Positions 3,520-20,556 of a stretch of 64,000 nucleotides of DNA are shown in pieces. The notes beneath the pieces are model-generated. The model made no database searches. It saw only the letters and a program-made list of their open reading frames with translations, and was not told the DNA's origin. Numbering within the stretch: the first letter of the stretch is position 1; each line of letters starts with the position of its first letter. Source of the DNA: Dehalococcoidia bacterium (lineage in GTDB: Bacteria > Chloroflexota > Dehalococcoidia > Lucifugimonadales > UBA3495); contig OZ242027.1 in the NCBI GenBank assembly GCA_965204865.1, positions 1,731,353-1,795,352 of the forward strand, in the 5' to 3' direction. The translations under genes were made by a program, and so were the position numbers.

Positions 3520-4848
3520 CTACTTGACTCCTGCCCTGTGCTGTTCCAGGCAATCCAGGACGATTTTGTTGATATCGGGAAACTGCCCCCGGGCGAAGTC
3601 ATCCAGCCGTTGCGCGATTTTCTCGCGAGTGCCATCCTCGTTCCACCAGGCATCGTAGTCAGACTCTTCCAAAACGTTGCCAATCCTGAGATCGATCGAA
3701 TCGTTCGCGTCCTCGGGAATCTCGTTGTCGAACAATTCAGGGTGGACGCTCAGCCGGTCCAGGATGCTACTCTTGAGCTTGCCGTCCCCGCGCCAAGTAA
3801 TAAAGAGCGACAGCTCCGCATGACGGTTGGCGCAACGCACCTGAAACTGCAACAGGATATTGGGCCAACCGTCCACCTTGAGTTCTTCCCTGTCCGCCCA
3901 TTCTGCCGCCACGAAGCGGGCATAGTTGCGGTTGCATGTGCTTTCCCTCCATTCGGGCCGGTTACGGACCGCATCCCGCACCATCCCGTACGCTTCACCG
4001 GGGTAGTCGGGCTCGTACCGCTCCCGATACTCGATGATGAGATCAATCGCCTGCTTGTGTTTTCGATAGATCTGGCGGGCCAGCCGGTGCACGTCGTCGC
4101 TGACTTCTGGCACGATGTTCCTCCGTATCGTGGTGGCGTACTGGCGCAAGGGCGCCCTTATATCCTCATGGACGCCGTTGCCTCTATTTTCGAGAGTGAG
4201 TTCGACCAGTCCCAGGATGTCCTTGTAGGTCATGGTTATCCAGTGCCTTTCTTCCTCCGGATTCTCGGGGACCGCGCCCGCAGGAGTCAGGAATATCCGC
4301 TCTACGCGGTGCTCCGGGTAATGCGAGTCAAGGGCCTCTCGATAGAATTCGAGCTGCGACCCGCTCTCCGGCGACCACACCTTGTTCTCAATTGCGCAAA
4401 TGAACCTCCAATCATCGTTCAGGATGCGGATGTCAAGCCTGCCGCTACCGTCCCGGAACGTGATGCCCTGCTCTCGGACCACTGTAGTCCTGTCGATGAG
4501 GGAGGCAGGAATGGCGCCACGCCACCCGCGGAAATTCAGGAACTCTCTCAGAAAATATGAGCCAAGCCCGTGGCTGGCTGCCGGACTCAATAACCAGGCT
4601 AGGAAATTAGAGTGAAATTCCTCTTTATCGTCCAACCCCAGAGAATGAAAGACGTCAACTGTGGTCAGCCAATCCTTGACTAGATCTCCGAGAGAATTCA
4701 GATCGCCTTCGTCGTCGCGCAGTCGCTCCAGAGCCATGCGGGATTCCCGGTCAACCCGGGAGAACAGGCCCTGAAGTTCTCCCAACGCCTCGTCCAACTC
4801 TCTCAGGGAAGTGATCGTCTCCGGTTTGTTCATGGCGCATTGTTTCAT
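3520..4848 (-). CDS. PD-(D/E)XK nuclease superfamily protein (PDDEXK_4-like N-terminal region, extended C-terminal domain)
   Basis: 442 aa. EFHSNFLAWLLSPAASHGLGSYFLREFL block followed by GRLDIRIL...ICAIENKV (D..ExK-type core). Family assignment is from memory of the Pfam pattern and was not searched. Confidence 0.65.
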   Translation of the reverse strand: MKQCAMNKPETITSLRELDEALGELQGLFSRVDRESRMALERLRDDEGDLNSLGDLVKDWLTTVDVFHSLGLDDKEEFHSNFLAWLLSPAASHGLGSYFLREFLNFRGWRGAIPASLIDRTTVVREQGITFRDGSGRLDIRILNDDWRFICAIENKVWSPESGSQLEFYREALDSHYPEHRVERIFLTPAGAVPENPEEERHWITMTYKDILGLVELTLENRGNGVHEDIRAPLRQYATTIRRNIVPEVSDDVHRLARQIYRKHKQAIDLIIEYRERYEPDYPGEAYGMVRDAVRNRPEWRESTCNRNYARFVAAEWADREELKVDGWPNILLQFQVRCANRHAELSLFITWRGDGKLKSSILDRLSVHPELFDNEIPEDANDSIDLRIGNVLEESDYDAWWNEDGTREKIAQRLDDFARGQFPDINKIVLDCLEQHRAGVK

Positions 4849-5902: not shown

Positions 5903-7171
5903 ATGGCCAGATTAGAGTCGAGACTGTGGGACGCCGGTCCTCGCGGACTTACCAGACGCGACAGGCGTCCCTGCCAGTATTCAGTATACATCCCGGATCC
6001 TTTGGCCGGGCGCCGTTTTGTCCTCGACGGCGACGTGGCGGCAGACGTCGCTGACGCCGAGGCCGACCTGGTGCGCCTCAACGCCACTGCGGCAGCTCTC
6101 GCCGATACCGAGGCGCTGGCCAGGCTGCTTCTGCGCGCCGAATCCGTCGCCTCTTCAAAGATTGAAGGCCTGGTGGTGGGAGGTGGACGGTTGCTCCGCG
6201 CCGATGCCGCGCGACGAATGGGCGAGGAACCACGGGAAGTGACTGCAAGGGAGGTACTGGCCAACATCGATGCCATGACGGCTGGAATAGAGGCGGTCGG
6301 GGACGGCGGCCTCATCTCCATGGATACTGTCCTGGAGATGCACCGCCGCCTGCTGGCTGGTTCCCCCATGGAGGACCACGGCGGCCGCATCCGCACCGGG
6401 CAGAACTGGATCGGAGGCAGCGATTACAATCCCTGCTCAGCGGCTTTTGTGCCTCCCCCGCCGGAAGAAGTGCCCGGCTTGCTGGAAGACCTGTTGGCTT
6501 TCTGCAATGATGATCCCCTTCCCGCTTTGGCGCAGGCTGCAATTGCCCATGCTCAGTTCGAAACGATACATCCGTTTGCCGACGGCAATGGCAGGGCCGG
6601 GCGGTCGCTGATCCATCTCATACTGCGCCGGCGGGGTATGACGCCGCATTTCCTGCCTCCGGTCTCGCTCGTCCTGGCAACCTGGGTAAATGACTATGTG
6701 GACGGCCTTGCCGCGACCCGCTACATAGGACCGCCGGACGCGGAGGCTGCCCGTGAAGGGATCAACCGGTGGGTAGTGCTGTTTTCCGGCGCCGCCCGCA
6801 GGGCGGTTCAGGACGCCAGCCAATTCGAGCAGGAGGTGCGGCAACTTCAAGCCTCCTGGACGGAACTGGTCGGCAATCCCAGGCGTGACTCCACGGTCCG
6901 CCTGCTCATAGGAGGGCTTCCCGCAGCCCCGGTACTGACCACGGGTACTGCGTCCGAGTTGACCGGCCGGACGTTTCAGGCGGCGAATCTGGCGATTTCC
7001 CGTCTTGTGAGAGCTGGAGTCCTGGTGCAGGTCAATGTCGGCAGGCGCAACCGGGCTTTCGAAGCTCCCGAACTCATTGAAGCATTCACGTCGCTGGAGA
7101 GACAACTGGCCAGCCCAGGGGGAGACACTCGCATTTCCCCGCCTGCCCGCCAGGTGCCCGAGCGCCGGTGA
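5903..7171 (+). CDS. Fic/DOC family protein (AMPylase-type) with Fic_N-like N-terminus and C-terminal wHTH-like tail
   Basis: HPFADGNGRAGRSLIHL matches the Fic motif HxFx(D/E)GNGRxxR. N-terminal LLRAESVASSKIEGL contains an (S/T)xxxE(G/N) inhibitory-helix-like motif. Confidence 0.9.
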   Translation: MARLESRLWDAGPRGLTRRDRRPCQYSVYIPDPLAGRRFVLDGDVAADVADAEADLVRLNATAAALADTEALARLLLRAESVASSKIEGLVVGGGRLLRADAARRMGEEPREVTAREVLANIDAMTAGIEAVGDGGLISMDTVLEMHRRLLAGSPMEDHGGRIRTGQNWIGGSDYNPCSAAFVPPPPEEVPGLLEDLLAFCNDDPLPALAQAAIAHAQFETIHPFADGNGRAGRSLIHLILRRRGMTPHFLPPVSLVLATWVNDYVDGLAATRYIGPPDAEAAREGINRWVVLFSGAARRAVQDASQFEQEVRQLQASWTELVGNPRRDSTVRLLIGGLPAAPVLTTGTASELTGRTFQAANLAISRLVRAGVLVQVNVGRRNRAFEAPELIEAFTSLERQLASPGGDTRISPPARQVPERR

Positions 7172-7741
7172 TCCTCACTTTACCCACGCGGGCTCCCGCA
7201 AGAACCGAAAGACTCGCCCTTGGGCTGGCACGTCGGCGGGACACGCGCCTGTCATACAGTTCGTCTCGGTTCAGCCTATCTCTGGCATAAAGGACGACAC
7301 CTTCCGCCTCGAACTTGGCCGCGACATCGTCCAGCATTCTCACCCGGCGCTGTGGCTCGGTTGCCTTGCGGACCCTGTCGCCGTCCTCCAGGAGAATCTG
7401 CGTCAGGTAACCCCTGAGCATATAAGACATAGAGATACCTTTCTAAGCAGGCCCGATCTTCGCCGGGCGAAGGGTTCCATCGTCCACTGCCACCCTGATC
7501 ACTTTCAGGGTCTGCATTTCCCATGGTTCTATGTGTTGATGCCCCTATGGTAGCATTGTGCGGATTCTCGCCATTTGGGCCATTGCCGGAAGCGCCTGGG
7601 CAATGGCTGCCTTGCTGTCCAGGACAAGGCTGATCCTCAGGTGTCCGCATTGCGGTGAGCCGACCCATCCTGAGAACGGTTTTTTACCAGTGAAACTCCG
7701 GTTTGCCAGCCCGGCCATCCAATTCGGAAAGGGAAGCCTGA

Positions 7742-9061
7742 TTGAAAGTAACCGTAATCGGTTTGGGGAACGTGGGGACCGTCGCCGCAGCAGGCTTCGC
7801 CCTCTCCGGCCACCAGGTCCTGGCGACTGATGTCGACCTGCATAAGATCCAGGCTCTCCGTGACAGGGGGTACTGCGGACCGGAGCCGGAACTGCGCGAG
7901 CGAATAGCGGCCGCTATGGAAGGCGGCAATATCCGCTTCCGGCACAGCGATGAGGTGGCGGAGGAACTGGGGGATGTAGCGCTGGTTGCGGTCGGCACGC
8001 CTCCGGGCGAAGGGTATTCCGTGGAACTTGGGCAGGTGGAAGGGGCCGTAAGCTGGGTGAGGGAGAGGGCGTCCAGCGGTCTGGTGCTGGCCATGAAGAG
8101 CACTGTGCCGCCCGGCGCCGGGGCGCGCATTCTTGAGAGGGAGCTTCGTGGAACCGGCATCGGCTACGCCGCCAATCCGGAGTTCCTCCGGTTGGGACAG
8201 GCGGTCCGGGACTGGGACTCTCCCGACCGGATTGTCATCGGCGCCGCCCCCGGAGACAGCCGTTCCCTCGAGATAATGCGCAGCCTGTACGAAGGCATCG
8301 ACTCCCCCGTGCTGACTACCAACATCACCACCGCCGAAATGATCAAATACGCCAGCAACGCTTTCCTTGCTACGCGCATCTCCTTCATCAACGAGATGGC
8401 CTCCATCTGCGACCGGGTGGGGGCATCCATTGACGACGTGAGCGAAGGTCTGGCCATGGATTCCAGAACAGGAGCCAGGATATTGGCCGGCGCCGGTTAC
8501 GGAGGGCCATGCCTGCCGAAGGATGCCGGCGCTCTCTTGAGCTTGGCCCGGCAGACCGGGGCCAGCGCTGATTTGCTACAAGCCGTTGTTGGCGTCAACC
8601 GGCGCCAGTGGCAACTCCCCCTCCGTGCCCTCAGGGACAGGTTCGGCGACAGGCTGAACGGATTGAAGGTCGCGGTGCTCGGGCTGGCCTTCAAGCCAAG
8701 AACCGGAGATCTGACCGAAGCTCCGGCGGTTAAGCTGGCCCTTGCGCTTGCGGAGGAGGGGGCGGAACTGACGGCCTATGATCCCAGTTTTACGAACGGC
8801 GGGAATGTGGCCCTTCCTGTCGCCATGCGGGTCGCCCCTGATGCCTTAACCGCCACTGCCGGTACGCAGGCCGCCGTGGTGATGACCGAATGGGGTGAGA
8901 TAGTCGAGGCTGACTGGGCCGCAGCAAAGCGGCTCATGGCTCCGCCGTGGTTCATTTTCGACGGAAGGAACGCGCTGGACCATAGAACGATGAAGTCGAT
9001 GGGCTTCGAATACGTTGGCGTTGGGCGCGGCTCCATGCCGCATGGCTCGTCCGGCCGATGA
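7742..9061 (+). CDS. Nucleotide-sugar 6-dehydrogenase (UDP-glucose/GDP-mannose dehydrogenase family)
   Basis: TTG start. Rossmann VTVIGLGNVGTVAAAGF, catalytic-Cys motif GYGGPCLPKD, C-terminal UDP-binding-type domain (GLAFKPRTGDLTEAP). Confidence 0.88.
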   Translation: MKVTVIGLGNVGTVAAAGFALSGHQVLATDVDLHKIQALRDRGYCGPEPELRERIAAAMEGGNIRFRHSDEVAEELGDVALVAVGTPPGEGYSVELGQVEGAVSWVRERASSGLVLAMKSTVPPGAGARILERELRGTGIGYAANPEFLRLGQAVRDWDSPDRIVIGAAPGDSRSLEIMRSLYEGIDSPVLTTNITTAEMIKYASNAFLATRISFINEMASICDRVGASIDDVSEGLAMDSRTGARILAGAGYGGPCLPKDAGALLSLARQTGASADLLQAVVGVNRRQWQLPLRALRDRFGDRLNGLKVAVLGLAFKPRTGDLTEAPAVKLALALAEEGAELTAYDPSFTNGGNVALPVAMRVAPDALTATAGTQAAVVMTEWGEIVEADWAAAKRLMAPPWFIFDGRNALDHRTMKSMGFEYVGVGRGSMPHGSSGR

Positions 9062-9073
9062 GAGGGGATCGGG

Positions 9074-10030
9074 ATGCCAGTTGAACAACGGGTCCTCATC
9101 ACAGGCGCGGCGGGTTTCGCCGGTTCCAGCTTTGTGAAGGCCCTGCTTGCCAGAGGATATGAAGTCAGTGGCCTGGACGTGGTGGCTCCAGCCCATGCCA
9201 GTTTGTTGCGGGAAGAGCTTTCCCAACCCGGATTCCAATATATCTGGAAGAGCGTCCAGGACGTCCAACCATCGGACATTGCCGGACATTCCGTTGTGGC
9301 GCACCTGGCGGCGCAGCCCGACACCCCCATGGCCTTCGAGTCGCCCCGCTATACCGCGATGCAGAACGTGGGCGGAACGGTGGACCTGCTGGAAGCGGTA
9401 CGCCACGCGGGCTGCGTATCCAAGGTGCTCTTCGCGGCCTCCGGCAACGAGTTGGGCCGGCCGCTGTACCTGCCGATGGACGAGGACCACCCTCTCACGC
9501 CTCACAATCCCTACGGGTTCTCCAAGGCTGCCGCCGAATTGGCGATGTGGGCCTGGCACCGGGCATACGGCATACCGGCGGTCGTGCTGTCCACGGGGGT
9601 GGTGGTGGGCCCCAACATGCGGCGCGAGATCTTCGTATTCAAGTGGCTGTGGAACGCCCTGCACGGCAGGCCCATCATCGTCGAGGGAGGGCAGCAGACC
9701 CGCGACCTGACCTACATCGACGATGTGATTCAGGCATGGGTGCTGGCCATAGAGGCTCCCGCTGAACAGGTGGTGGGACAGAAATTCTACGTTGGCTATG
9801 GCGAAGAGCACACCATCGAGGAACTGGCCTTGATGTGCCGGGCCATCACCGGGTCGGACGTATCCGTCGAATACGTCGACTACCGCCCTGGAGAGGAGGG
9901 GCAGCGTGAGGCGTTCAGCGCCGAGAAGGCCCGGCGGGTGCTAGGCTACAGCCCTCAGTTTCCTCCTGGGCAGGCCATTTCACTGACAGCGGGATGGATG
10001 TCCAGAATGCTCATTGATTCCGGGAAGTGA
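9074..10030 (+). CDS. NAD-dependent nucleotide-sugar epimerase/dehydratase (extended SDR)
   Basis: VLITGAAGFAGSS Rossmann motif, catalytic YGFSKAAAE (YxxxK). Starts 13 bp after the dehydrogenase stop. Confidence 0.85.
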   Translation: MPVEQRVLITGAAGFAGSSFVKALLARGYEVSGLDVVAPAHASLLREELSQPGFQYIWKSVQDVQPSDIAGHSVVAHLAAQPDTPMAFESPRYTAMQNVGGTVDLLEAVRHAGCVSKVLFAASGNELGRPLYLPMDEDHPLTPHNPYGFSKAAAELAMWAWHRAYGIPAVVLSTGVVVGPNMRREIFVFKWLWNALHGRPIIVEGGQQTRDLTYIDDVIQAWVLAIEAPAEQVVGQKFYVGYGEEHTIEELALMCRAITGSDVSVEYVDYRPGEEGQREAFSAEKARRVLGYSPQFPPGQAISLTAGWMSRMLIDSGK

Positions 10031-10110
10031 ACCACGAAAACAGCCGATTCCGCACACGGCACCGGCTGCCTAATCCCATGGTTATCTGGACTGTCCCGGG
10101 ACCGGATGGT

Positions 10111-10202
10111 TTAGTCGTAGAGTCCACCTCTTTCGGCGAAGCGATCCGGAAAGACTTCGATTTCCGTCAAAGCCTGCTCCACCCCTATGTCCAGATTGGA
10201 CT
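10111..10202 (-). other. Out-of-frame continuation encoding the viperin C-terminal extension (SNLDIGVEQALTEIEVFPDRFAERGGLYD*)
   Basis: Reverse complement of 10111-10202 in the alternative frame reads ...Q S N L D I G V E Q A L T E I E V F P D R F A E R G G L Y D stop (TAA at 10113-10111). It is residue-for-residue colinear with vertebrate viperin [28 protein letters not shown]. One missing nucleotide near 10200-10203 (AGCAG|TCC) would join the frames. Confidence 0.75.
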
Positions 10203-11018
10203 GCTGTAGGTGTGCTCGCCTTTCGTGTTATCAAAGAACCGGCCCAGCGGATCGATCATCAGGTAGCTGCCGGTCATCTGCTCGTTGTTTTCGGGGACCA
10301 CCCTGATGCCCCTCCTCTCGACCGAACGGTTCCGCTGGACATATAGGTCGAATTCTTCCCGGTTGACGGCGAACTCATGAAACCGTTTGTCGTTTTGGCC
10401 CGCCACTGGCAGCGCCTGGAAAATCTTCCATCTCTCCGGCCCCATGGCCCTGATGAAAGATCGGAAGTCCTCGTCGACGTTTAGGCGGTTGACTACTGTG
10501 TTGACCTTCAGGCGGATGCCGCGGGCCTTGGCGCTTTCTCCGATGCGCAAGTAATCCGCCTCGGTCATCGGTTGTTTGCCGTTGACCACGCGTCCAATCT
10601 TGCGTTGCTTTTCGGGACTCGCGCTGTCGATACTGATGGCCAGGATGTCCAGGCAACCAGCGAGGCTTTCAAGCCAAGCTTCTGTGAAATTGGAACCGTT
10701 GGAAACCACAGAGGTAGTCAGGTCCAGTGACTTGGCGTGACGAGTCAGCTCGGGAAGCCAGGGGCAGAGGGTGGGTTCGCCGCCGGCGAAGTTGATCTTG
10801 AGGAATCCTGCCTTGGCGATAAGTGTGATAAGGCGGATGGAGTCGTCTTGAGGGAGGCAGTTGACGCCCTGGGAAGGACGCTCGGGGAAGGCCGCGAAGC
10901 AGAAGCCGCAACTCATATTGCACGACTTCCAGAGATGGTAGTTGACCGTGGTGACCTCAGCGGAAATAGAGCATGATTGGACCCTCACTTTTCGTATCCC
11001 AACCCCGTGAATTAACAC
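10185..11018 (-). CDS. Prokaryotic viperin (pVip, radical-SAM NTP 3'-deoxy-3',4'-didehydro synthase family); reading frame ends prematurely before the conserved C-terminal extension
   Basis: TVNYHLWKSCNMSCGFCFA parallels vertebrate viperin VNYHFTRQCNYKCGFCFH. Further colinear blocks: KINFAGGEP, SVVSNGS, LDILAISIDS, LKVNTVVNRLNVDED, RWKIFQALPVAGQN, VPENNEQMTGSYLMIDPLGRF. GTG start at 11018 (alternative GTG at 10988). Confidence 0.88.
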   Translation of the reverse strand: MLIHGVGIRKVRVQSCSISAEVTTVNYHLWKSCNMSCGFCFAAFPERPSQGVNCLPQDDSIRLITLIAKAGFLKINFAGGEPTLCPWLPELTRHAKSLDLTTSVVSNGSNFTEAWLESLAGCLDILAISIDSASPEKQRKIGRVVNGKQPMTEADYLRIGESAKARGIRLKVNTVVNRLNVDEDFRSFIRAMGPERWKIFQALPVAGQNDKRFHEFAVNREEFDLYVQRNRSVERRGIRVVPENNEQMTGSYLMIDPLGRFFDNTKGEHTYSSPIWT

Positions 11019-11122
11019 TACAGTCTATTGGGACGACCTTGCGACAGTCGTGCGAACTGACGCGGCAGTGTTGGGGTCTTAAAATAGGATAATGAATTAG
11101 TCGGTATTTGTACAGGGTGTGG

Positions 11123-11803
11123 TCAGTCCGCATCCTGTATCGTTGCTATGTCGAAGGCGGTTCTTTTACCTTTCCACGATAGTTTAATCTCATCACCTGA
11201 CTGCCACACCAGTACTCCCTCAAGGTAATTCGGCCATCCGGTTTCTGCTGGCGATAAACGGAATATGCTTGCCACTAGGACCGACAGGATGATGTCGTGC
11301 GTGACAAAGACGTGGATTTGGCCATCGTTGCCCAGCGGGAATGTCACCAGATCAAGCAGAATTTCAACCCCCTCTGAGGTCGGACGCATACCGGGCAGGG
11401 GACTGGCGTCGTGAAGTTGGCGGCGGGCGATTTCAGGGACGGGAAGTGCCAGAAACAAAGGACCCGCTATTTCGGGATCGACAATGAAAGCGCCGGGATG
11501 CCCCAGACGCCGGTCTGTGATGACCTCGGCTGACGAACCGGCGCCGACAAGGATTCCACGTGTGGTCTGGACGCATCGGGGCACCGGGCTGGATACCGCG
11601 GTAATCGTTCTATTCTCCGATAGGGCTGCGCCCAAGTGTTCCGCATCCTGGAGACCCCGCGCGGTCAGGTTCATGTCGTGTCCGAAGGCGCCCATCGGAA
11701 TCTCCTCGCGCTCGGCGTGTCTGATGACCAAGGACACGTCCACGCCTTCAGGAACTGTGGCCAGGCGCTCCAGGATGGAGGCCACAGGATCGGGCGCGGT
11801 CAA
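11123..11803 (-). CDS. Histidine phosphatase superfamily protein (phosphoglycerate-mutase-like, branch 1)
   Basis: SLVIRHAEREE (RHG-type catalytic His), SSPVPRCVQT, VFVTHDIIL (second His). TTG start at 11803 overlaps the upstream stop (TTGA). Confidence 0.8.
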   Translation of the reverse strand: MTAPDPVASILERLATVPEGVDVSLVIRHAEREEIPMGAFGHDMNLTARGLQDAEHLGAALSENRTITAVSSPVPRCVQTTRGILVGAGSSAEVITDRRLGHPGAFIVDPEIAGPLFLALPVPEIARRQLHDASPLPGMRPTSEGVEILLDLVTFPLGNDGQIHVFVTHDIILSVLVASIFRLSPAETGWPNYLEGVLVWQSGDEIKLSWKGKRTAFDIATIQDAD

Positions 11804-13487
11804 ACTGCCCTGGCCCTGATGACCGAACTTACAGAACGGGTAGGGAGTACCTCGGTGAGTTCAAAGCCGGACTTGGCCAGGAGGTACCTGAACTGTTCCT
11901 CTGTGCGCTCCGCGCCCCCGGCCACAATAAGCATGTTCAGGTCCAGCAGGCCGCCGACGCCGGTCGTGCCGTCCAACACCATCTCAACCACGGAGAGTGT
12001 GCCCCCCTTCGGCATAGCTTCCCTGGCCTGGGTCAGAATGCGCACCGCGTCATCGTCCTGCCAGTCGTGCAGTACCCGGGCCAGTACCACCGCGCCGGAC
12101 CGGACCGGCCATTCGTTGAAGAGATCGCCGGGAACAAACCGGCAACGGTCCCCGATGTCGTCGGGTGCCTTGGCTAGGCCTACTACCTCCGAAAGATCCA
12201 TGACGGTGGCGGTCAGGCCGGGATGGGCACGAAGCAGGGTGAATGCCAGTTCGCCGGTGCCGCCGCCAGCGTCCAGTATGTGGTTGTGGCTTCCAAAGTC
12301 CCAGTCGGCCGCCAAGTCCTGGTAGTCGTGCCTGGCGTAGCTGGCAAAGGCCCTGTGAGAGGATTGCAGTTGCTCCGGCCTGTCCTTCAGTAGCTGGAAA
12401 AGGTTCTGGCCGTACAGCTTCCTGATGGCGGAGTTGCCGGTGCGGAGTGAGTACTCCGCCTCGGTCCAGGCCCTGTAGGTCTCGCCACCCCACAGGGAGG
12501 CGGCATCGGCCAGGGAGTGCAAGTGCGAGCGTTGTAGCAGGGCGCCCTTTTCGGTGTGGTGGTAGACGCCCTCGGCATCGGCCTGGACGAGTCCCAACTC
12601 CGTAAGGGCTCGTATCAGCCGGAGCCCCACGGAGTCCGCCAGTTCGAGCGATTCTTCGATGTCCTCTGCTGACGCCGGCAACGACTCGAACACACCCATT
12701 TCCACCGCAGCCCGTATGGCCTGGGTCCTCCACATCCCCACCATGTCGCCGGAGAGTTCCTCAAGAGGAGTGCGAAGAGACTCCCTAAGTTTGACCAGGA
12801 TCTTTCCTGACTCCCCGATGACCGACAGCGAACCGTCAAACCCTTCCACCCTGGCCTGCCCGTTGTAGAAGGGCTCCGCATTCCTGTAGCGGTCCTGGTA
12901 CAGCGGCTGTCCGTGAACATCGACGTGGTGCCAGCCCTGCTCATCCCGAGCACGGGCGAAGTTCTTGTGGAACACATCCAGATCGAGGAACCACCGCCCA
13001 TGCAACAGAGCGCCGGAGGGGCCGATGTGGCTGTGCCGCCCGTCATCGCTTTGCACAACGGCAGAGCCGTCCTTGAAATCCCCGGCATAGCGATAGCGCT
13101 CCTCATAGGCCGGGTTGCCGTCTTCCACAAGGTGAAAGTAGCGCCCGCCTGAGCCTCGCACGGTGCAGCGCCCCTCCTGGAAGTTGCCGCACCAGGCATA
13201 CCGCTCCGGGTAAAGGGGACTGCCGTCAGGCAGGACGTGGAGCCATCCGTCAATGGAATGCACCGCGGCGCGCCCCTCGTAGAACCCGAAGGTCCTGATG
13301 TAGCGGGGATCATAGGCCGGCAGACCGTCGGGGGTGACGTGGTAGGCGCCGGTGCTGTCCACCACCGGCGCCAAGCCCGGCGCGTGGAACTTCAGCACCT
13401 CCAGGAACCGCGCTTCGTAGACGGGTCTCCCGTAGCAGACGTGATGAGTGCCGTCCGCCGCTATCCTGTATTCTCGCCAGTTGCCGC

Positions 13488-14548
<1,061 letters not shown>

Positions 14549-14552
<4 letters not shown>

Positions 14553-15913
14553 CGCCCTCCCCTTTCCCGGATCAGTCCCTCGTAGATCTGCTCCACGGCG
14601 AGGGCATGGTCTCGGATGTCGGGAACGTTGCCGTCGGCAGACTGCAAATACCCCCGGCGGCCTAACCGTGTCGCCAGTCCCGGGTCGTCGGCCAGCCGCT
14701 GCATCTGGCGGGCCAGCGACTCGGGGTCCCGGTGGGTGAAGAGCAGACCGTTCTCTTCGTGGTGGACGTATTCGGCCATGCCGCCATAGTCGGCGGTGAT
14801 CACCGGCACGCGGGCCTGCTGGGCTTCGTGGATCACCAGCGGCGAGTTCTCGGCCCAGATGGACGGCACCACGATGGCGTCGCACAAGTTGAACACGTCC
14901 GGGACAATGTTCTGGTTACGGTACTCGCCCATCCACTCGACACGATCTCCGGCGGTACCAGGCAAGCTGCGGGCCAGCGCCTTTAGTCCCTGAGTCTCCA
15001 CTCCCCGGTCCCGCCCCCAGATGCGGAGCCTGCTCTCCCCGGACAGCCGCCCGAAAGCCTGAATCAGGTGGTCCACGCCCTTGGCCGGTATGTGAGTGCC
15101 GATGTAGCCGAAGGTAAAGGGATCGCCTGGGGCGCGCTCCCTGTCTGCCATCCGGTCAAGGTGGAAGCCGTAGTCCAGGTAGACAAGTTTCTCCTCAGGG
15201 AGGCCGAATTCGTTCCTGAACCGGCGCAGCAGGTACCTTGCCGGGGCGATGAACACGTCCACTGCGTCGCATACCTCGCGCACGTGGGACATGCGGCGAC
15301 CCACCCACCGGGTCCAGTAGTCGGCGTCCAGTTCGTACTCCCGCGCGTCTCCGGAGAAATACCGGGAGTAGCAGCGCTCGGCGCACTTGCGGTCGTCCTG
15401 TCCATTACAGACGGCCCAGGGGTCGGAGGGATCCTCCGGATACGTCTGGATGAACTGTCCCCGCGGGCACATCACCCAGTAGTCGTGGAGAGTGAACACC
15501 ACCGGCACGCCGCAATCCCTGGCAGCAAACACCAGAGACGTGGACAGGTGGTTCAGGTGTCCCACGTGGATCACATCCGGCTTAACTTCATCGAGGACAT
15601 CGGCAAAGGCGTGATCCACGGCCCGGTGCCGGTAGCCGTCTCTGGCCCTGGCCATGTTGACGACGTGAAGGGTGATATCCGGCGCGGAAGGGTCGGAGTC
15701 CCTTTGCACCTCGTATTCCTGGAGGAAGGCGTTTTCCTGCCTGGTGAAAACGTGGACCTCGTGCCGCTCCGCCAACGCTTGTGCCAGGCCCTGGGTATAG
15801 ACCTCCGAGCCGGCGTTATAGCGCATCGGATAGCCGTGAATCACTTGCAGAATTTTTAATTGCTGGCCCGGCAATCTCGGTTTCTCCTTGCTGTCGGCAA
15901 AGTCGTACCTCAT
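14549..15913 (-). CDS. GT-B fold glycosyltransferase, family 4-like
   Basis: LKILQVIHGYPMRYNAGSEVYTQGLAQALAERHEVHVFT (GT4 N-terminal domain). C-terminal VVPSIWAENSPLVIHEAQQARVPVITADYGGMAEYVHHEENGLLF (E-x7-E-type region). Confidence 0.82.
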
Positions 15914-15922
15914 TTTCCAGCG

Positions 15923-15951
15923 ATGATAGTAATAATGTTATTGCCGGTCAA
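15923..15951 (-). promoter_or_regulatory. Candidate sigma70-type promoter for the GT4-rSAM-OMT-phosphatase operon
   Basis: On the minus strand: TTGACC (15951-15946), 17-nt spacer, TATCAT (15928-15923), in an AT-rich patch. The ATG at 15913 lies only 9 nt past the -10, implying a leaderless or near-leaderless mRNA. Confidence 0.3.
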
Positions 15952-16089
15952 TGGGATGAGATGAGGACCAATACTACGCTCCTTTCCGCCTACACCCTTT
16001 TGCAGAATTTGTGCTCGCCGGTTCCGTTTGCTTGTAGGGTCTGGCATGAGGAAGCATCCCACCAGCAGGAGAGAGATACGCTATAAGCA

Positions 16090-16818
16090 AACGGACCCTT
16101 CAGCCAGTTGATAGTCCGCTCCGCCAGATTGAGTTGCTGGTTCACGGTCCGGTGGAAAGGACCAACGCGTTGTTCGTTGATTTTCCGTGGGATGGTAAAG
16201 CTTATTCTCCACCGCCTGAGGCAGGCCCTGATCCTGCGGCTGCTGTACCCTTCGTCAGCGCTGACACCGCGGACTCACTGCGGCTTGATACGGGGACGGC
16301 CGCGTCCGGAACGCCTCACAGCTCCTTGGACCATCAACTCCTCGAACGCGCTGGCCTCGTGACATTAACCAGGAGTCAGCACGAATGCTGCCGCGTTGCC
16401 CTGGCCCTCGACCTTCAGTTGGACTTTGGTCCCGAACCCTCCTTCGGGTACAGCCCAGCGCCTGACCGTCCTCCCTCCTTTGCCCCAGCCGCGTGCTGAT
16501 GCGCCCGGACGCTGGCGCCGTCCATGTAGTCCACTTCGCACTCAACATGCCCGGCGGCATCGGCTTCCCGCTGCACCTGAGTCAGAAACCGCTCCCACAA
16601 TCCCTGTTTACCCCACCGGTATGAAGGGCTGGCTACCCTGCCACAAGGCCCACAGCGCTGCGCAGGTTGGGCCTAGGGGCGCCGGCACGCAAAAACCACC
16701 AGACCCCGTTGATGATCATGCGACGGTCCTTCCCGGGCCGCCCAGTGATCGGCTTCCGGGCCGGCAATTGCGGCTTCATTCGCCGCCATCGATCATCCGT
16801 CAAATCCCCTCGTACCAC
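16090..16818 (-). pseudogene. IS5-family (IS427/IS1031-like) transposase pseudogene, multiply frameshifted with in-frame stops and C-terminally truncated
   Basis: Segments in different frames: MVRGDLTDDRWRRMKPQLPARKPITGRPGKDRRMIINGVWWFLRAGAP, then GLWERFLTQVQREADAAGHVECEVDYMDGASVRAHQHAAGAKEGG, then GGFGTKVQLKVEGQGNAAAFVLTPG(stop)CHEASAFEELM, then ADEGYSSRRIRACLRRWRISFTIPRKINEQR...NLAERTINWLK. Confidence 0.8.
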
Positions 16819-17230
16819 CCGCCTAACTCGTCATTACAACCTGTCTCATCCAGTTTAAGCTTCACAATCGGGTTTGCAAACGCGCCCTGGTGCTCTCCCC
16901 AGTCGGCGCTACTTATAGGGATAACCCAAATAGAGCCCTGCCAGGGTGTCCTGTAATTCACCCGGCTGAAAACTTCCCTTACGTGGGAGTTCTGACCGGA
17001 AACCAGATTCGCCATTGTCTACGGAATCAATTTCTTATTTGGATGGAATACAGAATTTACACATTAAAATATACAACTCTTTCGGCATACCTATTGAGTT
17101 ATACACTCAAACAGTCATTACAGTGCCTACGAATTTCTGCGGATATCTTGCGCGAAAGATAAAACTTTCCGGGTACTTGACAATCATATGAGGTGGGAAT
17201 TTTGGACAGGAACCGCAAAGGAGCGAAAAT

Positions 17231-17539
17231 ATGACTGGGCGTTTACCGCCGTTCGCCATCCACCTCAAAAGTCTGCGGGAGAAATCGGGTAAAAGCCGGT
17301 ACGCAATCGCCAGATACGCAGAGTTGGACGAAGCCTATCTGCTCCGGCTGGAATCGGGGGCTCGCCGGAATCCGTCGAGGGATGCAGTGATAAAAATTGG
17401 CCTTGCACTGGTGTCGGGAACGACTAAGATCACGAGGCACGATATCGACCGGCTCCTGGTATCGGCCGGCTATCTCCCGCTAATGGGCAGGGGTGAGCCG
17501 CTTTTCGAGGTGGACCAAGGAGACTGGACCGATAGCTAA
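17231..17539 (+). CDS. XRE-family helix-turn-helix transcriptional regulator; 3' end runs into the IS3 left inverted repeat
   Basis: AAGGAG Shine-Dalgarno 7 nt upstream of the ATG. HTH region LKSLREKSGKSRYAIARYAELDEAYLLRLESGARRNPSRDAV. The last ~11 codons (EVDQGDWTDS*) are encoded by the IS3 IRL starting near 17506. Confidence 0.75.
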   Translation: MTGRLPPFAIHLKSLREKSGKSRYAIARYAELDEAYLLRLESGARRNPSRDAVIKIGLALVSGTTKITRHDIDRLLVSAGYLPLMGRGEPLFEVDQGDWTDS

Positions 17540-18867
17540 ACGGTAATCCTGCTCCAAACTAAAGACAGCAATTGCCGTTGTCGAGGCGGAGCGGGAAATG
17601 TCCAGAGAGCGGAGAAAGTACAGCCCGCCTCCAAGGCTAGAATTGCACTGGTGGCATTGAAGGGAGAGCAGACGATGCCCGCGCTAGCCGCCCGGTTAAG
17701 GTCTACCTCAACCAGATTCAGAGGTGTATGTAGGTTCTGGCCGATGCCGAGGCAGCCATCTTTGCCCACGTCAACGGGACCGATAAGGGCAACGAGTCGA
17801 GGAACAACGACACCTTGGTGGTCCTGTTGTACCAGCAGACCGGACAGCTGAAGGAGAAGCGGGATTTCTTTCAGGAGAGGGCGGCTCCGTGATTCCAGCA
17901 CGGCGGCGCGTGATGGTCGACTGGCGACATCGGCACCTATCCGTGGTGCGGCAGTGCGAGTTCATAGGCGTCGGCAGCCCCAGCCTCCACTACCGTGCCA
18001 AGGAGACCTCGCAACGGGACCTGTCCCTGATGCCGGAGGTGGACCGCCAGTACCTGGAAACCCTCTTCCAGGGTTCCGGGCGGGTGAGGGCCTCCCTGGA
18101 ACGGCAAGGCATGCCGGTAAGCCGTAAGCGGGTACAGCGGCTCATGAGACGGGGCTGCGGTCCATCTACCGGCAGCGCCGCGCCAGCCAACCGGCGCCGG
18201 AACGCCAAATGTACCCCTGCCTGCTGAGGAACTGACGATTGCCCGTACGAACCGGGTATGATCCGCTGACATCGCCTATCTGCCCATGGCCAGGGGATTT
18301 CTCTACTTGGTGGCCATCATGGACTGGTACGGCCGTTAGGTGGCGGCCTAGCGTTTGTCCAACACTCTGGTGGCCAGCTTTTGCATCGAGGCGTCGGGCG
18401 ATACCCTGAGCCAGGGAACGCCCGACCTTTTCGAAACCCGCCAGAGAAGCCGGTTCACCAGCCGCAAGTTCACGCAGATACTCCAGGATCACTAGGCGAG
18501 GATCAGCCCGGATGGCAGAGGCCAGTGCCAGGAAATCGTAGCCGTCGAGCGGCTATGCAGGACGGTGAAGAACGGGAAGTCTACCTAAAGGCCTTCGCCA
18601 ACGGCCTTGAGGCCCGCGAGAGTACTTCCGGTTCTACGACCACCGGAGGCCGCATCAGGCCCTGGGACTACCGGACGCCGCTCGTGTGCCTGCTGCACTG
18701 TACCTGGGACGTTAGTCGCCAGCCGCTGAAACCCATGCTTGGGACTTTCTATCAATGGCCGCCGGTAAGCCGAAAATGGTGGCCCTGAATGCCTGCATGA
18801 GGTACTGATGGTGATCCTGAACTCCACGCTTAAGCACGGTTCATCTTGGAACCACGGGGCCACCAAG
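17506..18867 (+). mobile_element. Decayed copy of the IS3-family element found intact at 57176-58591
   Basis: IRL-like CGAGGTGGACCAAGGAGACTGGACCGATAGCTAAACGGTAATCCTGCTCC aligns with the intact IRL TGAGGTGGACCCAAGAAACTGGACAGGTAGCTAAGTGGGAATCCTGCTCC. IRR-like TCTTGGAACCACGGGGCCACCAAG ends near 18867. The orfA/orfB homologous sequence is broken by many frameshifts, stops and deletions (e.g. MSRERRKYSPPPRLELHWWH..., fragments [57 protein letters not shown]). Confidence 0.8.
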
Positions 18868-20039: not shown

Positions 20040-20240
20040 AATATGTACTTGCCTCACAGTTGAGAATTGCCTGGCAGGCAAGCATTCGGAGACGGGGGCT
20101 TGGCGGCAGAAAAGGCAGGGGACCGGATTAGGAGGGCTGGCGGGAGAATCGCCGGTCAATCGGCCGACCGGGTGTCGATTTGAAGCTGTAAGGGGCGGGA
20201 ATTTCCAAATTCCCGGCTGGGGCGCAGGACGTTTAATTTG

Positions 20241-20281
20241 CAAGCAGGGGGTCAGGGGTTCGACCCCCCTCACCTCCACCT
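20241..20281 (+). other. tRNA/tmRNA-like 3' fragment (T-arm + 3' acceptor strand), candidate att/direct-repeat site
   Basis: AGGGG-TTCGACC-CCCCT (T-stem/loop, 20254-20270) followed by CACCTCC-A-CC (20271-20280). No matching 5' acceptor strand (GGRGGTG), D-arm or anticodon arm in the preceding 90-250 nt. GGACG upstream is reminiscent of tmRNA 3' regions. Confidence 0.5.
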
Positions 20282-20556
20282 CGTCGCAGACTGCTTGCGT
20301 TGCCCCTGATATGGCCTCTGTCTCTCTGAAGAGGTTCCGATTACTTTCACTTTTCCGCAGTACCATAAAGACAGTCGTGGGACTGCTATGGACCGTCCTC
20401 TGCTGCTTAATTGTCTGATCATACATACTTGACTGGCGCACAAGTAGCTGGTATGCACCTAGCGCACAAGACTGGACTCAAGATGCGTTCCGGGGGCGGT
20501 CATCATTGTCAGAGATGGACTAAGAGCATCGAAAAGCAGGCAGGAGGGCAAAACGT

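What the first reader, a model, noticed from the sequence alone, without database searches (positions are those of the whole stretch)
11123..11803. Histidine phosphatase where pVip/viperin loci usually carry a nucleotide kinase
Seen: the RHAERE...THD histidine-phosphatase protein is the last translationally coupled gene and sits immediately upstream of the viperin. Established: vertebrate viperin is linked to CMPK2, and many pVips are linked to nucleotide kinases that supply NTP substrate. Inference: a phosphatase would act in the opposite direction. It could convert ddhNTP or an NDP-linked intermediate to a nucleoside or monophosphate for tailoring or export, or limit self-toxicity.
Basis: inference. 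Interest (0 to 1): 0.6.

Follow-up and report, generated by a model that had tools for sequence, protein, structure and literature searches.

The report
Cassette phosphatase beside a broken viperin
The gene is a real histidine phosphatase, but it belongs to a widespread four-gene sugar/radical-SAM/methyltransferase operon of unknown product rather than to the viperin, although antiviral viperin genes have joined that operon repeatedly in two bacterial phyla, which hints at an undescribed viperin-linked pathway.

Summary
Window 11123-11803 (-) encodes an intact 226-aa branch-1 histidine phosphatase. It is the last translationally coupled gene of GT4 glycosyltransferase > radical-SAM/SPASM > WG-repeat/O-methyltransferase > phosphatase, 134 nt upstream of a bona fide pVip.

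- **Cassette member:** 61 of 78 genome loci encoding this phosphatase family carry the same cassette. Only 8 have a pVip within 10 kb.
- **Component fusions:** the phosphatase is fused elsewhere to WG, O-methyltransferase or radical-SAM domains.
- **Analogous replacement:** one operon replaces it with an unrelated PTP-type phosphatase.
- **No kinase substitute:** only about 12% of bacterial pVips have a neighbouring kinase, and one related operon carries pVip, a cytidylate kinase and a phosphatase together.

The pVip-cassette link is nonetheless not chance. pVip occurs in four gene orders, in two separate pVip clades (Dehalococcoidia and Bacteroidota). These include a 4-nt pVip>phosphatase overlap and pVip as first operon gene.

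The window's pVip has a 1-nt deletion that removes its conserved C-terminus. It also keeps a conserved pVip-specific leader.

The cassette product and the phosphatase substrate remain unknown. The ddh-nucleotide tailoring idea is neither shown nor excluded.

The parts
15923..15951 (-). Sigma-70-like promoter match (TTGACC-17-TATCAT, 10 of 12) just upstream of the GT4 start
   Evidence: This is a consensus match only; the number of such matches found in the region did not exceed the number expected from shuffled sequence.
14549..15913 (-). GT4-family glycosyltransferase, first gene of the cassette
   Evidence: Pfam Glycos_transf_1 (7.5e-29), Glyco_transf_4, and GT4-conflict at 38.9 bits against a cutoff of 26. 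The best PDB sequence hit is 6kih, Tll1590 (E 3e-13), which I recall to be a sucrose-phosphate synthase. The gene is conserved in 61 of 78 phosphatase loci. It is fused to the rSAM enzyme in Proteobacteria and Bacteroidota.
13488..14552 (-). Radical-SAM/SPASM enzyme (354 aa); its ATG overlaps the GT4 stop (ATGA)
   Evidence: Pfam Radical_SAM plus SPASM. No NCBIfam family reached its cutoff. More than 3100 homologues were found. The AF2 model has pLDDT 67.6, and its weak best fold hits are BlsE, SuiB, SkfB, viperin and DesII. Junction confirmed.
11800..13491 (-). WG-repeat domain fused to a small-molecule O-methyltransferase (Methyltransf_2). The start is GTG 13491 (GTGA overlap) or ATG 13518.
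   Evidence: Pfam Methyltransf_2 (3.3e-33), Dimerisation, and a weak WG_beta_rep match. The best PDB relatives include natural-product O-methyltransferases: 6c5b, CalO6, MmcR and DnrK. Junction confirmed.
11123..11803 (-). The finding itself: a branch-1 histidine phosphatase (226 aa). Its TTG start overlaps the O-methyltransferase stop (TTGA).
   Evidence: The AF2 model has pLDDT 85.7. Foldseek gives probability 1.0 to RosC, PspA, PhoE, GpgP and CobC.
10989..11090 (-). Conserved non-coding leader of pVip; core motif AAGGTCGTCCCAATAGACTGTAGT at 11040-11017
   Evidence: The leader is conserved upstream of Dehalococcoidia pVips in every gene order examined, and also in L082, a pVip that is not next to the cassette. 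All 10 motif matches in 2.26 Mb lie upstream of a pVip. RNAalifold gives only a weak nested hairpin with 2 covarying pairs. There is no Rfam match.
10185..10988 (-). pVip (prokaryotic viperin), main reading frame, ending prematurely
   Evidence: PADLOC pVip 275 bits, covering profile positions 1-235 of 257. NCBIfam NF038283 scores 286 bits. My own pVip HMM aligns positions 3-266.
10111..10227 (-). Out-of-frame remainder of pVip that encodes the conserved C-terminus (…LDIGVEQALTEIEVFPDRFAERGGLYD*)
   Evidence: The alignment with L079, L080 and L001 shows a 1-nt deletion. The pVip HMM aligns positions 263-292 in this second frame.
9074..10030 (+). SDR nucleotide-sugar epimerase/dehydratase converging on the cassette; probably a fifth cassette component
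   Evidence: Pfam Epimerase, E 1.2e-43. In almost all Dehalococcoidia loci it lies directly convergent to the phosphatase. Several proteobacterial loci (L055-L058, L063, L068) have an SDR match upstream of GT4.
7742..9061 (+). UDP-glucose/nucleotide-sugar 6-dehydrogenase, upstream of the SDR gene
   Evidence: Pfam UDPG_MGDP_dh domains. NCBIfam NDP-sugDHase scores 321.9 bits. It is present in about half of the Dehalococcoidia loci.

Best explanation
The ORF encodes an active-looking, divergent branch-1 histidine phosphatase. It is the dedicated phosphomonoesterase of a conserved biosynthetic cassette: SDR nucleotide-sugar enzyme, GT4 glycosyltransferase, radical-SAM/SPASM enzyme, optional PhyH dioxygenase, WG-repeat/O-methyltransferase, phosphatase.

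**Most likely mechanism (inferred).** GT4 transfers a sugar from a nucleotide-sugar onto a phosphorylated acceptor. The rSAM enzyme, which is often fused to GT4, remodels the product. The dioxygenase and O-methyltransferase tailor it. The phosphatase removes the phosphate and so commits the pathway. This is the synthase/phosphatase logic of sucrose-phosphate synthase/phosphatase, MshA, and GpgS/GpgP, where GpgP is itself a histidine phosphatase. The final product is unknown.

**Relation to pVip.** The viperin is not the phosphatase's obligate partner. It is a facultative module with its own conserved leader, and it has been recruited next to or into this cassette repeatedly. In this window it has a frameshift. 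The phosphatase therefore works with or without viperin. It is neither a replacement for a viperin-associated kinase nor its opposite.

**Shown:** gene reality, family membership, operon structure, cassette conservation and the recurrent pVip linkage. **Inferred:** the substrate and the order of steps.
For: **Family and catalytic residues.**
- Pfam His_Phos_1 match.
- R28, H29, R32, R76 and H169 are invariant, and D97 is at least 90% conserved.
- The model has pLDDT 85.7 with histidine-phosphatase fold hits at probability 1.0.

**Cassette membership.**
- 61 of 78 genome loci, from Dehalococcoidia/SAR202, Bacteroidota, Proteobacteria, Myxococcota and Akkermansia, have GT4, rSAM and O-methyltransferase flanking the phosphatase.
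- Start and stop codons overlap in the window and in proteobacterial operons.
- Domain fusions exist: WG+His_Phos (P0304, P0360), O-methyltransferase+His_Phos (P0378) and His_Phos+radical SAM (P0275, P0296).
- GT4-rSAM fusions of 764-783 aa occur.
- In L106 a Pol-beta NTase plus Y_phosphatase3 protein sits at the same operon position. This is a non-homologous replacement, and it shows that a phosphatase step is required.

**Synthase/phosphatase precedent.**
- The best PDB sequence hit of GT4 is 6kih, Tll1590, which I recall to be a sucrose-phosphate synthase.
- GpgP Rv2419c is among the fold hits and is a documented histidine-phosphatase partner of a glycosyl-3-phosphoglycerate synthase (PMC3240985).

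**pVip is facultative and autonomous.**
- Only 8 of the 78 phosphatase loci, all among the 61 with the full cassette, have a pVip.
- pVip is decayed or disrupted in the window, in L009 and in L044.
- A pVip-specific leader travels with the gene, including in L082, a locus not next to the cassette.
- The close relative L006 lacks pVip altogether.
Against: - No substrate information exists. NCBIfam, PADLOC and PDB give no specific assignment for any cassette enzyme.
- The synthase/phosphatase analogy rests on weak similarity: 52.8 bits to 6kih (Tll1590).
- The recurrent operonic linkage with pVip is not explained by a purely viperin-independent role. Examples are L024 and L087 (pVip directly upstream of the phosphatase), L051, L101 and L106 (pVip as first gene), and the kinase in L106.
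- The O-methyltransferase belongs to the Methyltransf_2 family, whose best PDB relatives are natural-product O-methyltransferases such as DnrK, CalO6 and MmcR. This fits poorly with a simple glycoside compatible solute.
Confidence: 0.6

Rival explanations
1. Nucleotide-tailoring pathway. The cassette acts on nucleotides or nucleosides. Where pVip is present, ddhNTP made by pVip enters the pathway. The phosphatase dephosphorylates a (ddh)nucleoside monophosphate or a glycosylated nucleotide intermediate. GT4, rSAM, PhyH and the O-methyltransferase then turn it into a glycosylated, methylated ddh-nucleoside-type compound.
For: - pVip is integrated into the operon in four gene orders and two separate pVip clades.
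- In L024 the pVip stop overlaps the phosphatase start by 4 nt.
- L106 places a cytidylate-kinase-like gene between pVip and GT4, and has an NTase-PTP phosphatase at the phosphatase position.
- The Bacteroidota operons sit next to a divergent sigma-54 activator.
- The weak best fold hits of the rSAM enzyme include BlsE, viperin and DesII, which I recall to act on nucleoside- or nucleotide-linked sugars.
- CobC and RosC, which dephosphorylate nucleotide-like substrates, are among the phosphatase's relatives.
Against: - About 85% of cassette loci have no pVip within 10 kb, so the cassette must have a viperin-independent substrate.
- The cassette persists intact where pVip is frameshifted, interrupted or decayed.
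- Dehalococcoidia pVips keep their own leader, which suggests separate regulation.
- The rSAM fold hits are weak (TM about 0.4, model pLDDT 67.6), and RiPP maturases rank equally.
- No ddh-derived glycoside is reported in the searched literature.
Confidence: 0.25
2. No functional link. pVip landed next to the cassette because the convergent intergenic gap and the surrounding region form a defence or mobile-element hotspot. The phosphatase and the viperin are merely neighbours.
For: - The window has SoFic and a PDC-S26 nuclease a few kb away, a tyrosine recombinase, and an apparent transposase remnant read by eye from the sequence.
- In the window-type order, pVip lies in the gap between convergent operons, with a 134-nt spacer and its own leader.
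- The window and L006 differ by a recombination tract: 82% identity against 94% in the flanks.
- pVip is often lost or decayed.
- Close pVips P0167 and P0184 lie in other defence contexts.
Against: - Random placement within 10 kb of a given locus in a genome of about 4 Mb has a chance of about 0.5% per genome. That gives about 0.3 expected in 61 loci even if every genome had a pVip; 8 were observed.
- Linkage is kept across four gene orders within one pVip clade, and it arose separately in Bacteroidota.
- The in-operon positions with overlapping codons (L024, L051, L101, L106) are not hotspot insertions.
Confidence: 0.15
3. Self-protection. The phosphatase limits the toxicity of viperin products by hydrolysing ddhNTP in the producer cell.
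For: Only the adjacency supports this. Hydrolases fused to some eukaryotic viperins are mentioned in the preprint read.
Against: - The phosphatase is conserved in cassettes without pVip.
- Branch-1 histidine phosphatases act on phosphomonoesters rather than nucleoside triphosphates (own knowledge).
- Most pVips have no such partner: only 1 of the 80 surveyed pVip loci matched this phosphatase family.
Confidence: 0.04
4. Housekeeping cofactor-dependent phosphoglycerate mutase or another general metabolic phosphatase that happens to lie here.
For: It belongs to the same superfamily as dPGM.
Against: - The dPGM, CobC, PspA and PmrG models score 20-26 bits against cutoffs of 163-350.
- The gene has a fixed operonic position and fusions with cassette domains.
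- The family is patchy across phyla, which is not the distribution expected of a housekeeping enzyme.
Confidence: 0.02

Closest known systems
Histidine phosphatase superfamily, branch 1 (PF00300): PhoE, PspA phosphoserine phosphatase, CobC alpha-ribazole phosphatase, RosC, Sts/ecdysteroid-phosphate phosphatases
   Same: It shares the RH(A/G)E(R) nucleophile motif, the second Arg, the acid residue and the distal His. It has the same predicted fold.
   Different: Only the N-terminal half matches the Pfam profile. TM-scores are about 0.55. No characterised family model comes near its cutoff. It forms its own family, which is tied to a specific operon.
Glycoside-phosphate synthase/phosphatase pairs: GpgS/GpgP (Rv2419c), sucrose-phosphate synthase/phosphatase, MshA plus phosphatase
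   Same: A glycosyltransferase and a phosphatase are encoded together. GpgP is itself a histidine phosphatase (PMC3240985) and is among the fold hits. GT4's best PDB sequence hit is 6kih, Tll1590, which I recall to be a sucrose-phosphate synthase.
   Different: This cassette additionally has a radical-SAM/SPASM enzyme, a WG-repeat O-methyltransferase of the Methyltransf_2 family, and sometimes a PhyH dioxygenase. The acceptor is unknown. The similarities are weak.
pVip with an adjacent nucleotide kinase (viperin/CMPK2 paradigm)
   Same: A viperin is genetically linked to enzymes of phosphate and nucleotide metabolism. One related operon (L106) contains a cytidylate-kinase-like gene next to pVip.
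   Different: The partner is a multi-enzyme cassette that mostly occurs without viperin. The phosphatase is not homologous to a kinase and is not positioned like one. The window itself has no kinase.
Radical-SAM-plus-phosphatase steps in nucleoside antibiotic pathways (PolH/PolJ in octosyl acid formation, PMC5365060; the tunicamycin tun cluster, PMC6105854)
   Same: These clusters combine a radical-SAM enzyme, a glycosyltransferase, a methyltransferase and a small phosphatase that act on nucleoside-derived intermediates.
   Different: The resemblance is by gene content only and partly rests on memory.

Membership tests
Histidine phosphatase superfamily, branch 1 (PF00300) | Profile match above the curated threshold | tested here: met
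   41.3 bits against a cutoff of 21.7, E 1.7e-10. The match covers residues 26-100 only.
Histidine phosphatase superfamily, branch 1 (PF00300) | Catalytic set: RHG-type Arg-His, second Arg, acid residue and distal His | tested here: met
   R28, H29, R32, R76 and H169 are invariant, and D97 is at least 90% conserved, in 23 homologues of 50-76% identity. The assignment of roles is by analogy.
Histidine phosphatase superfamily, branch 1 (PF00300) | Alpha/beta histidine-phosphatase fold | tested here: met
   The AF2 model has pLDDT 85.7. Foldseek gives probability 1.0 to RosC, PspA, PhoE, TIGAR, GpgP and CobC, with TM about 0.5-0.58.
Histidine phosphatase superfamily, branch 1 (PF00300) | Phosphomonoesterase activity through a phospho-histidine intermediate | not testable with these tools
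   This needs an enzyme assay.
Cofactor-dependent phosphoglycerate mutase or other named housekeeping members (CobC, PspA, PmrG) | Score at or above the NCBIfam equivalog cutoff | tested here: not met
   dPGM_arch 22.7 against 225; PspA 26.3 against 350; CobC 23.9 against 162.9; PmrG 20 against 170.
Viperin-associated nucleotide kinase (CMPK2-like NMP kinase) | P-loop NMP-kinase domain next to pVip | tested here: not met
   None of the nine proteins scanned around the cassette has a kinase domain. A Cytidylate_kin2 gene does occur next to pVip in the related locus L106.
Dedicated pVip accessory gene | Co-occurrence with pVip across the family | tested here: not met
   From the phosphatase side, 8 of 78 loci have a pVip within 10 kb. 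From the pVip side, 3 of 80 pVip loci have the cassette, and only 1 of them matched this phosphatase family. No phosphatase+pVip pair occurs without the cassette.
GT4 / rSAM-SPASM / WG-OMT / His_Phos cassette (unnamed, defined here) | The phosphatase gene is flanked by GT4, rSAM-SPASM and Methyltransf_2 genes in one direction with overlapping or abutting codons | tested here: met
   Met in the window and in 61 of 78 loci. Domain fusions support it.
pVip (the neighbouring gene) | Viperin family model above cutoff and a CxxxCxxC cluster motif | tested here: met
   NF038283 scores 286 bits against 180. PADLOC pVip scores 275 bits. The motif CNMSCGFC is present.
pVip (the neighbouring gene) | Intact reading frame including the conserved C-terminal extension | tested here: not met
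   A 1-nt deletion relative to L079, L080 and L001 splits the gene. Frame A covers HMM positions 3-266 and frame B covers 263-292. Whether this is a sequencing error cannot be told. The seven neighbouring genes compared align full-length with their L079 orthologues.
RiPP system (rSAM/SPASM maturase plus precursor peptide) | A conserved small precursor-peptide gene in the operon | tested here: inconclusive
   The coupled window operon has no small ORF. Sporadic small ORFs occur in the gaps of a few loci only: G/K-rich ones in L035 and L044, N/Q-rich ones in L002, L013 and L047.
Nucleoside-antibiotic type cluster (tunicamycin/polyoxin-like) | Homology of the rSAM, GT and phosphatase to TunB/TunD/TunG or PolH/PolJ | not tested
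The resemblance rests only on gene content described in the literature.

The most novel reading that the evidence does not exclude
The cassette is a viperin-linked tailoring pathway. ddh-nucleotides made by pVip, fed by a kinase in some operons, are dephosphorylated by the cassette phosphatase. They are then glycosylated, radical-remodelled, hydroxylated and O-methylated into a new class of ddh-nucleoside-derived compounds. If so, bacteria would elaborate viperin products beyond the simple chain terminators known today, and the cassette on its own would make the non-ddh analogue.
Probability: 0.2. Interest if true: 0.85.

Novelty: new variant of a known kind. Interest (0 to 1): 0.6.

Why it matters
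Viperins are currently understood as stand-alone enzymes, or kinase-assisted ones, that make ddh-nucleotide chain terminators.

A conserved multi-enzyme cassette has become operonic with viperin in two phyla. In one case the operon also carries a kinase, and in one case a non-homologous phosphatase replaces the histidine phosphatase. This would be the first candidate for downstream processing or functional coupling of viperin products in prokaryotes. It gives a concrete, clonable gene set to test.

Independently of viperin, the cassette is abundant in Dehalococcoidia/SAR202, with more than 3100 rSAM homologues. Its product is unknown, so it marks an uncharacterised and probably important metabolite or glycoconjugate in major environmental bacteria.

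The conserved pVip leader offers a handle on how pVip expression is controlled, which I believe is not yet understood.

If the link turns out to be only positional, the finding reduces to an ordinary pathway phosphatase next to a decaying defence gene.

Tried and rejected
- **Rfam.** A scan of the whole window at gathering thresholds, and of 9900-17600 at E up to 1, found no riboswitch or known RNA upstream of the cassette or pVip.
- **Family libraries.** PADLOC has no model for the phosphatase or GT4. The O-methyltransferase and rSAM gave only weak below-family matches. NCBIfam has no family-level assignment for any cassette enzyme.
- **PDB sequence search with the rSAM enzyme.** No hits.
- **Structure-based search with the rSAM enzyme.** BlsE was top, but with TM 0.40 on a model of pLDDT 67.6. 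RiPP maturases and viperin scored almost equally. I did not use this to assign a substrate.
- **His_Phos plus radical-SAM fusion proteins (P0275, P0296).** I tested them as possible phosphatase-viperin fusions and rejected that reading. They score only 38-55 bits against the PADLOC pVip models, against 275 bits for the true pVip, and they resemble the cassette rSAM no better.
- **Tunicamycin/polyoxin analogy.** TunA/F, TunB, TunD, TunM and TunG, and PolH/PolJ, resemble the cassette by gene content only. No sequences were available, so it remains a lead.
- **pVip remnants in cassette loci that lack pVip.** Only L044 has one. The leader motif leaves no scars elsewhere.
- **Promoter and terminator scan.** No terminator-like site lies between the phosphatase and pVip on the minus strand. 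One promoter-like site lies upstream of GT4. The scans did not exceed shuffled expectation, so they carry little weight.
- **Literature searches.** Searches for a phosphatase, glycosyltransferase or methyltransferase linked to pVip or ddh-nucleotides found nothing relevant.
Full report
**1. The observation**

The minus-strand ORF at 11123-11803 exists exactly as described: 226 aa, TTG start. It reads RHAERE at residues 28-33 and THD at 168-170.

It matches Pfam His_Phos_1 (E 1.7e-10; 41.3 bits against a cutoff of 21.7), although only over residues 26-100. A search of the 5.8-billion-protein collection gave 185 homologues.

In an alignment of 23 homologues of 50-76% identity, R28, H29, R32, R76 and H169 are invariant and D97 is at least 90% conserved. 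The N-terminus beginning at the TTG is also conserved.

The AlphaFold model is confident (pLDDT 85.7). It matches solved histidine phosphatases at probability 1.0: RosC, PspA, PhoE, TIGAR, GpgP Rv2419c and CobC. TM-scores of only about 0.5-0.58 mark it as a divergent member. No named NCBIfam family comes near its cutoff. The gene is real, intact and probably catalytically competent.

**2. The operon**

Four minus-strand genes are coupled by overlapping stop and start codons:

| Gene | Coordinates | Junction with the next gene |
|---|---|---|
| GT4 glycosyltransferase | 15913-14549 | ATGA |
| Radical-SAM/SPASM enzyme | 14552-13488 | GTGA (or a 31-nt overlap if the ATG at 13518 is used) |
| WG-repeat + Methyltransf_2 O-methyltransferase | 13491-11800 | TTGA |
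| Histidine phosphatase | 11803-11123 | 134-nt spacer, then pVip |

After the 134-nt spacer comes a bona fide pVip (PADLOC 275 bits; NCBIfam viperin_w_prok 286 bits against a cutoff of 180). A UDP-sugar dehydrogenase and an SDR epimerase/dehydratase converge from the other strand.

**3. The viperin is broken in this window**

The pVip frame stops at 10185 (…YSSPIWT*). The conserved viperin C-terminus (…LDIGVEQALTEIEVFPDRFAERGGLYD*) continues in another frame to 10111.

Two metagenome scaffolds from one sample encode the identical phosphatase (L079, L080). Aligned with these and with L001, the window shows a single-base deletion in an ATT codon. L079 and L080 carry an intact 292-aa pVip. A pVip HMM places positions 3-266 in one frame and 263-292 in the other.

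The seven neighbouring genes compared align full-length with their L079 orthologues. A genuine pseudogene is therefore at least as likely as a sequencing error, but this cannot be settled here.

**4. Whose partner is the phosphatase?**

*Genome scan.* A scan of one genome per species returned 78 loci encoding relatives of the phosphatase. Most are Dehalococcoidia/SAR202. Others are Bacteroidota, Beta- and Gammaproteobacteria, Myxococcota, Akkermansia and a few archaea.

tblastn with the window's proteins shows that 61 of the 78 loci have GT4, rSAM/SPASM and the O-methyltransferase next to the phosphatase. Several of the remaining loci are cut by contig ends.

*The SDR gene.* In Dehalococcoidia the SDR gene abuts the phosphatase convergently. 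In several proteobacterial loci an SDR match lies upstream of GT4, and in L056 it opens a compact SDR > GT4-rSAM fusion > WG-OMT > phosphatase operon with 4-nt overlaps.

*Fusions and replacement.*
- GT4 and the rSAM enzyme are fused into single proteins of 764-783 aa in many loci.
- Among representatives of the phosphatase family there are WG+His_Phos, OMT+His_Phos and His_Phos+radical-SAM fusions.
- Some versions add a PhyH dioxygenase, either fused to the WG-OMT protein (L006) or as a separate gene (L101).
- In L106 the phosphatase position is occupied by an unrelated Pol-beta-NTase plus PTP-type (Y_phosphatase3) protein. This is an analogous replacement, and it shows that the pathway needs a phosphatase step.

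The phosphatase is therefore a core enzyme of this cassette.

**5. How is pVip related to it?**

Only 8 of the 78 loci have a pVip within 10 kb (L001, L003, L004, L005, L007, L009, L024, L051). L044 has a decayed remnant. The phosphatase does not depend on viperin.

The association is nevertheless far above chance. Even if every genome had one pVip, random placement would put it within 10 kb of a given locus in about 0.5% of genomes of about 4 Mb, which gives about 0.3 expected loci.

pVip occupies four different positions:

| Order | Position of pVip | Loci |
|---|---|---|
| a | After the phosphatase, before the convergent SDR gene | window, L001 and relatives, L086 |
| b | Between the O-methyltransferase and the phosphatase; its stop overlaps the phosphatase ATG by 4 nt in L024 | L024, L087 |
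| c | First gene, overlapping GT4 in L051 | Bacteroidota-type operons L051, L101, L106, L110 |
| d | Upstream of and co-directional with the SDR gene | L085 |

From the viperin side, 3 of 80 pVip loci drawn from JGI metagenomes carry the cassette. Many of these 80 contigs are short.

A neighbour-joining tree of 88 pVips puts all Dehalococcoidia pVips in one clade. That clade contains orders a, b and d, with two non-linked pVips nested inside it. The Bacteroidota cassette-linked pVips form a separate clade. There are therefore at least two independent associations. Within Dehalococcoidia, linkage has been retained through rearrangements.

L106 additionally has a cytidylate-kinase-like gene between pVip and GT4. 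Kinase and phosphatase thus co-exist in one operon rather than replacing each other. The premise that pVips usually carry a kinase is itself overstated: the figure is 12% of bacterial viperins (10.1101/2023.09.13.557418).

**6. pVip behaves as a mobile, separately equipped module**

*Leader.* A stretch of about 95 nt upstream of the pVip start is better conserved than the coding sequence. This holds across all Dehalococcoidia gene orders and in L082, a pVip that is not at the cassette. Its core motif matched 10 times in 2.26 Mb of fetched DNA, always upstream of a pVip. In the window it lies at 11040-11017.

RNAalifold finds only a weak nested hairpin with two covarying pairs. Rfam has no match.

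*Recombination tract.* The window and L006, a relative without pVip, are 94% identical in the flanking DNA. They are only 82% identical across the O-methyltransferase and phosphatase genes. This is a recombination tract that includes the pVip site.

*Decay.* pVip is interrupted by a 2.6-kb insert in L009 and decayed in L044.

**7. What the cassette might make**

- GT4's best solved relative by sequence is 6kih, Tll1590, which I recall to be a sucrose-phosphate synthase. The hit is weak.
- The O-methyltransferase is closest to natural-product O-methyltransferases such as CalO6, MmcR and DnrK.
- The rSAM enzyme has no sequence relative in the PDB. Its moderate model (pLDDT 67.6) weakly resembles BlsE, SuiB, SkfB, viperin and DesII.
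- No conserved precursor peptide was found.

The most economical reading is a small-molecule or glycoconjugate pathway. In it, a sugar is transferred to a phosphorylated acceptor, remodelled, hydroxylated or methylated, and dephosphorylated. GT/phosphatase pairs offer a precedent, including the histidine phosphatase GpgP (PMC3240985). This is inference, and the product is unknown.

**8. Verdict**

- The phosphatase is the cassette's enzyme. It is not a viperin accessory replacing a kinase, and the local viperin is frameshifted.
Viperins have joined this cassette repeatedly and intimately.
- The tailoring hypothesis (about 0.2-0.25) remains open and is directly testable.
- I found no description of this association in the searchable literature.

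Noticed in passing
window 10111-10230 (-): The pVip has a 1-nt deletion (ATT to AT) relative to L079, L080 and L001. This puts the conserved C-terminal 27 or so residues out of frame. It is either a pseudogene or an assembly error.
   Followed up: yes
window 10989-11090 (-), core 11040-11017: A conserved pVip-specific 5' leader (…CTGTCGC AAGGTCGTCCC AATAGACT GTAGTG…GGGTTGGGA…GTG) is present upstream of Dehalococcoidia pVips in every genomic context examined. It has no Rfam match. It may be a small nested hairpin or an operator.
   Followed up: partly
window 3520-4848 (-) and 5903-7171 (+): A PD-(D/E)XK protein matches the PADLOC candidate system PDC-S26 (E 8e-63). A Fic protein matches SoFic (E 3e-73). 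The cassette therefore sits beside defence genes.
   Followed up: no
window ~16100-16800 (-) and 18981-20441 (-): By my reading of the sequence, an apparent degraded transposase (possibly IS5-like, not checked against a profile) lies upstream of GT4, in a stretch of about 1.5 kb with no intact gene. A 486-aa ORF further upstream looks like a tyrosine recombinase; it was not scanned against Pfam.
   Followed up: no
window 11204-13431 compared with L006 8373-10600: The O-methyltransferase and phosphatase genes are only 82% identical to the close relative L006, while the flanks are 94% identical. L006 lacks pVip and has an extra PhyH dioxygenase domain on the O-methyltransferase protein. This is a recombination tract.
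   Followed up: partly
L106 7156-16212: One tight operon reads pVip > cytidylate-kinase-like > GT4 > rSAM > Pol-beta NTase+Y_phosphatase3 > OMT > WG. A divergent sigma-54 activator with weak RtcR-N similarity lies upstream. The PTP-type phosphatase replaces the histidine phosphatase.
   Followed up: partly
L052, L053, L056, L058, L059, L063, L070, L101: GT4 and the radical-SAM enzyme appear as a single ORF of 764-783 aa, consistent with a fusion. These are my own ORF calls and were not checked for frameshifts.
   Followed up: partly
P0275 (594 aa), P0296 (508 aa): These are histidine phosphatase + radical-SAM fusion proteins. Their rSAM domain is neither a true pVip nor the cassette rSAM. Their function and context are unknown.
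   Followed up: partly
L009 10846-14322; L016 ~8230-9555; L018 ~7684-9531; L007 10552-12167: Insertions disrupt or separate cassette genes. pVip is split by 2.6 kb in L009. Large extra ORFs interrupt the O-methyltransferase region in L016 and L018; they are probably transposases but have no Pfam check. An insert of about 1.6 kb lies between the phosphatase and pVip in L007.
   Followed up: no
L002 ~10862-11113, L013 ~10847-11104 and L047 ~10767-10979 (- strand); L035 ~9340-9639 and L044 ~9590-9841 (+ strand): Small low-complexity ORFs lie in cassette gaps. The N/Q-rich ones read '…RSNQLNPNN…GNQNN…WQA(R/K)GF'. The G/K-rich ones read '…RGGGKGGGGKSGGG…'. It is unclear whether they are genes.
   Followed up: no
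L003 and L005 (both from OZ253565.1): One Dehalococcoidia genome carries two complete copies of the cassette+pVip+SDR+dehydrogenase locus, 1.4 Mb apart.
   Followed up: no
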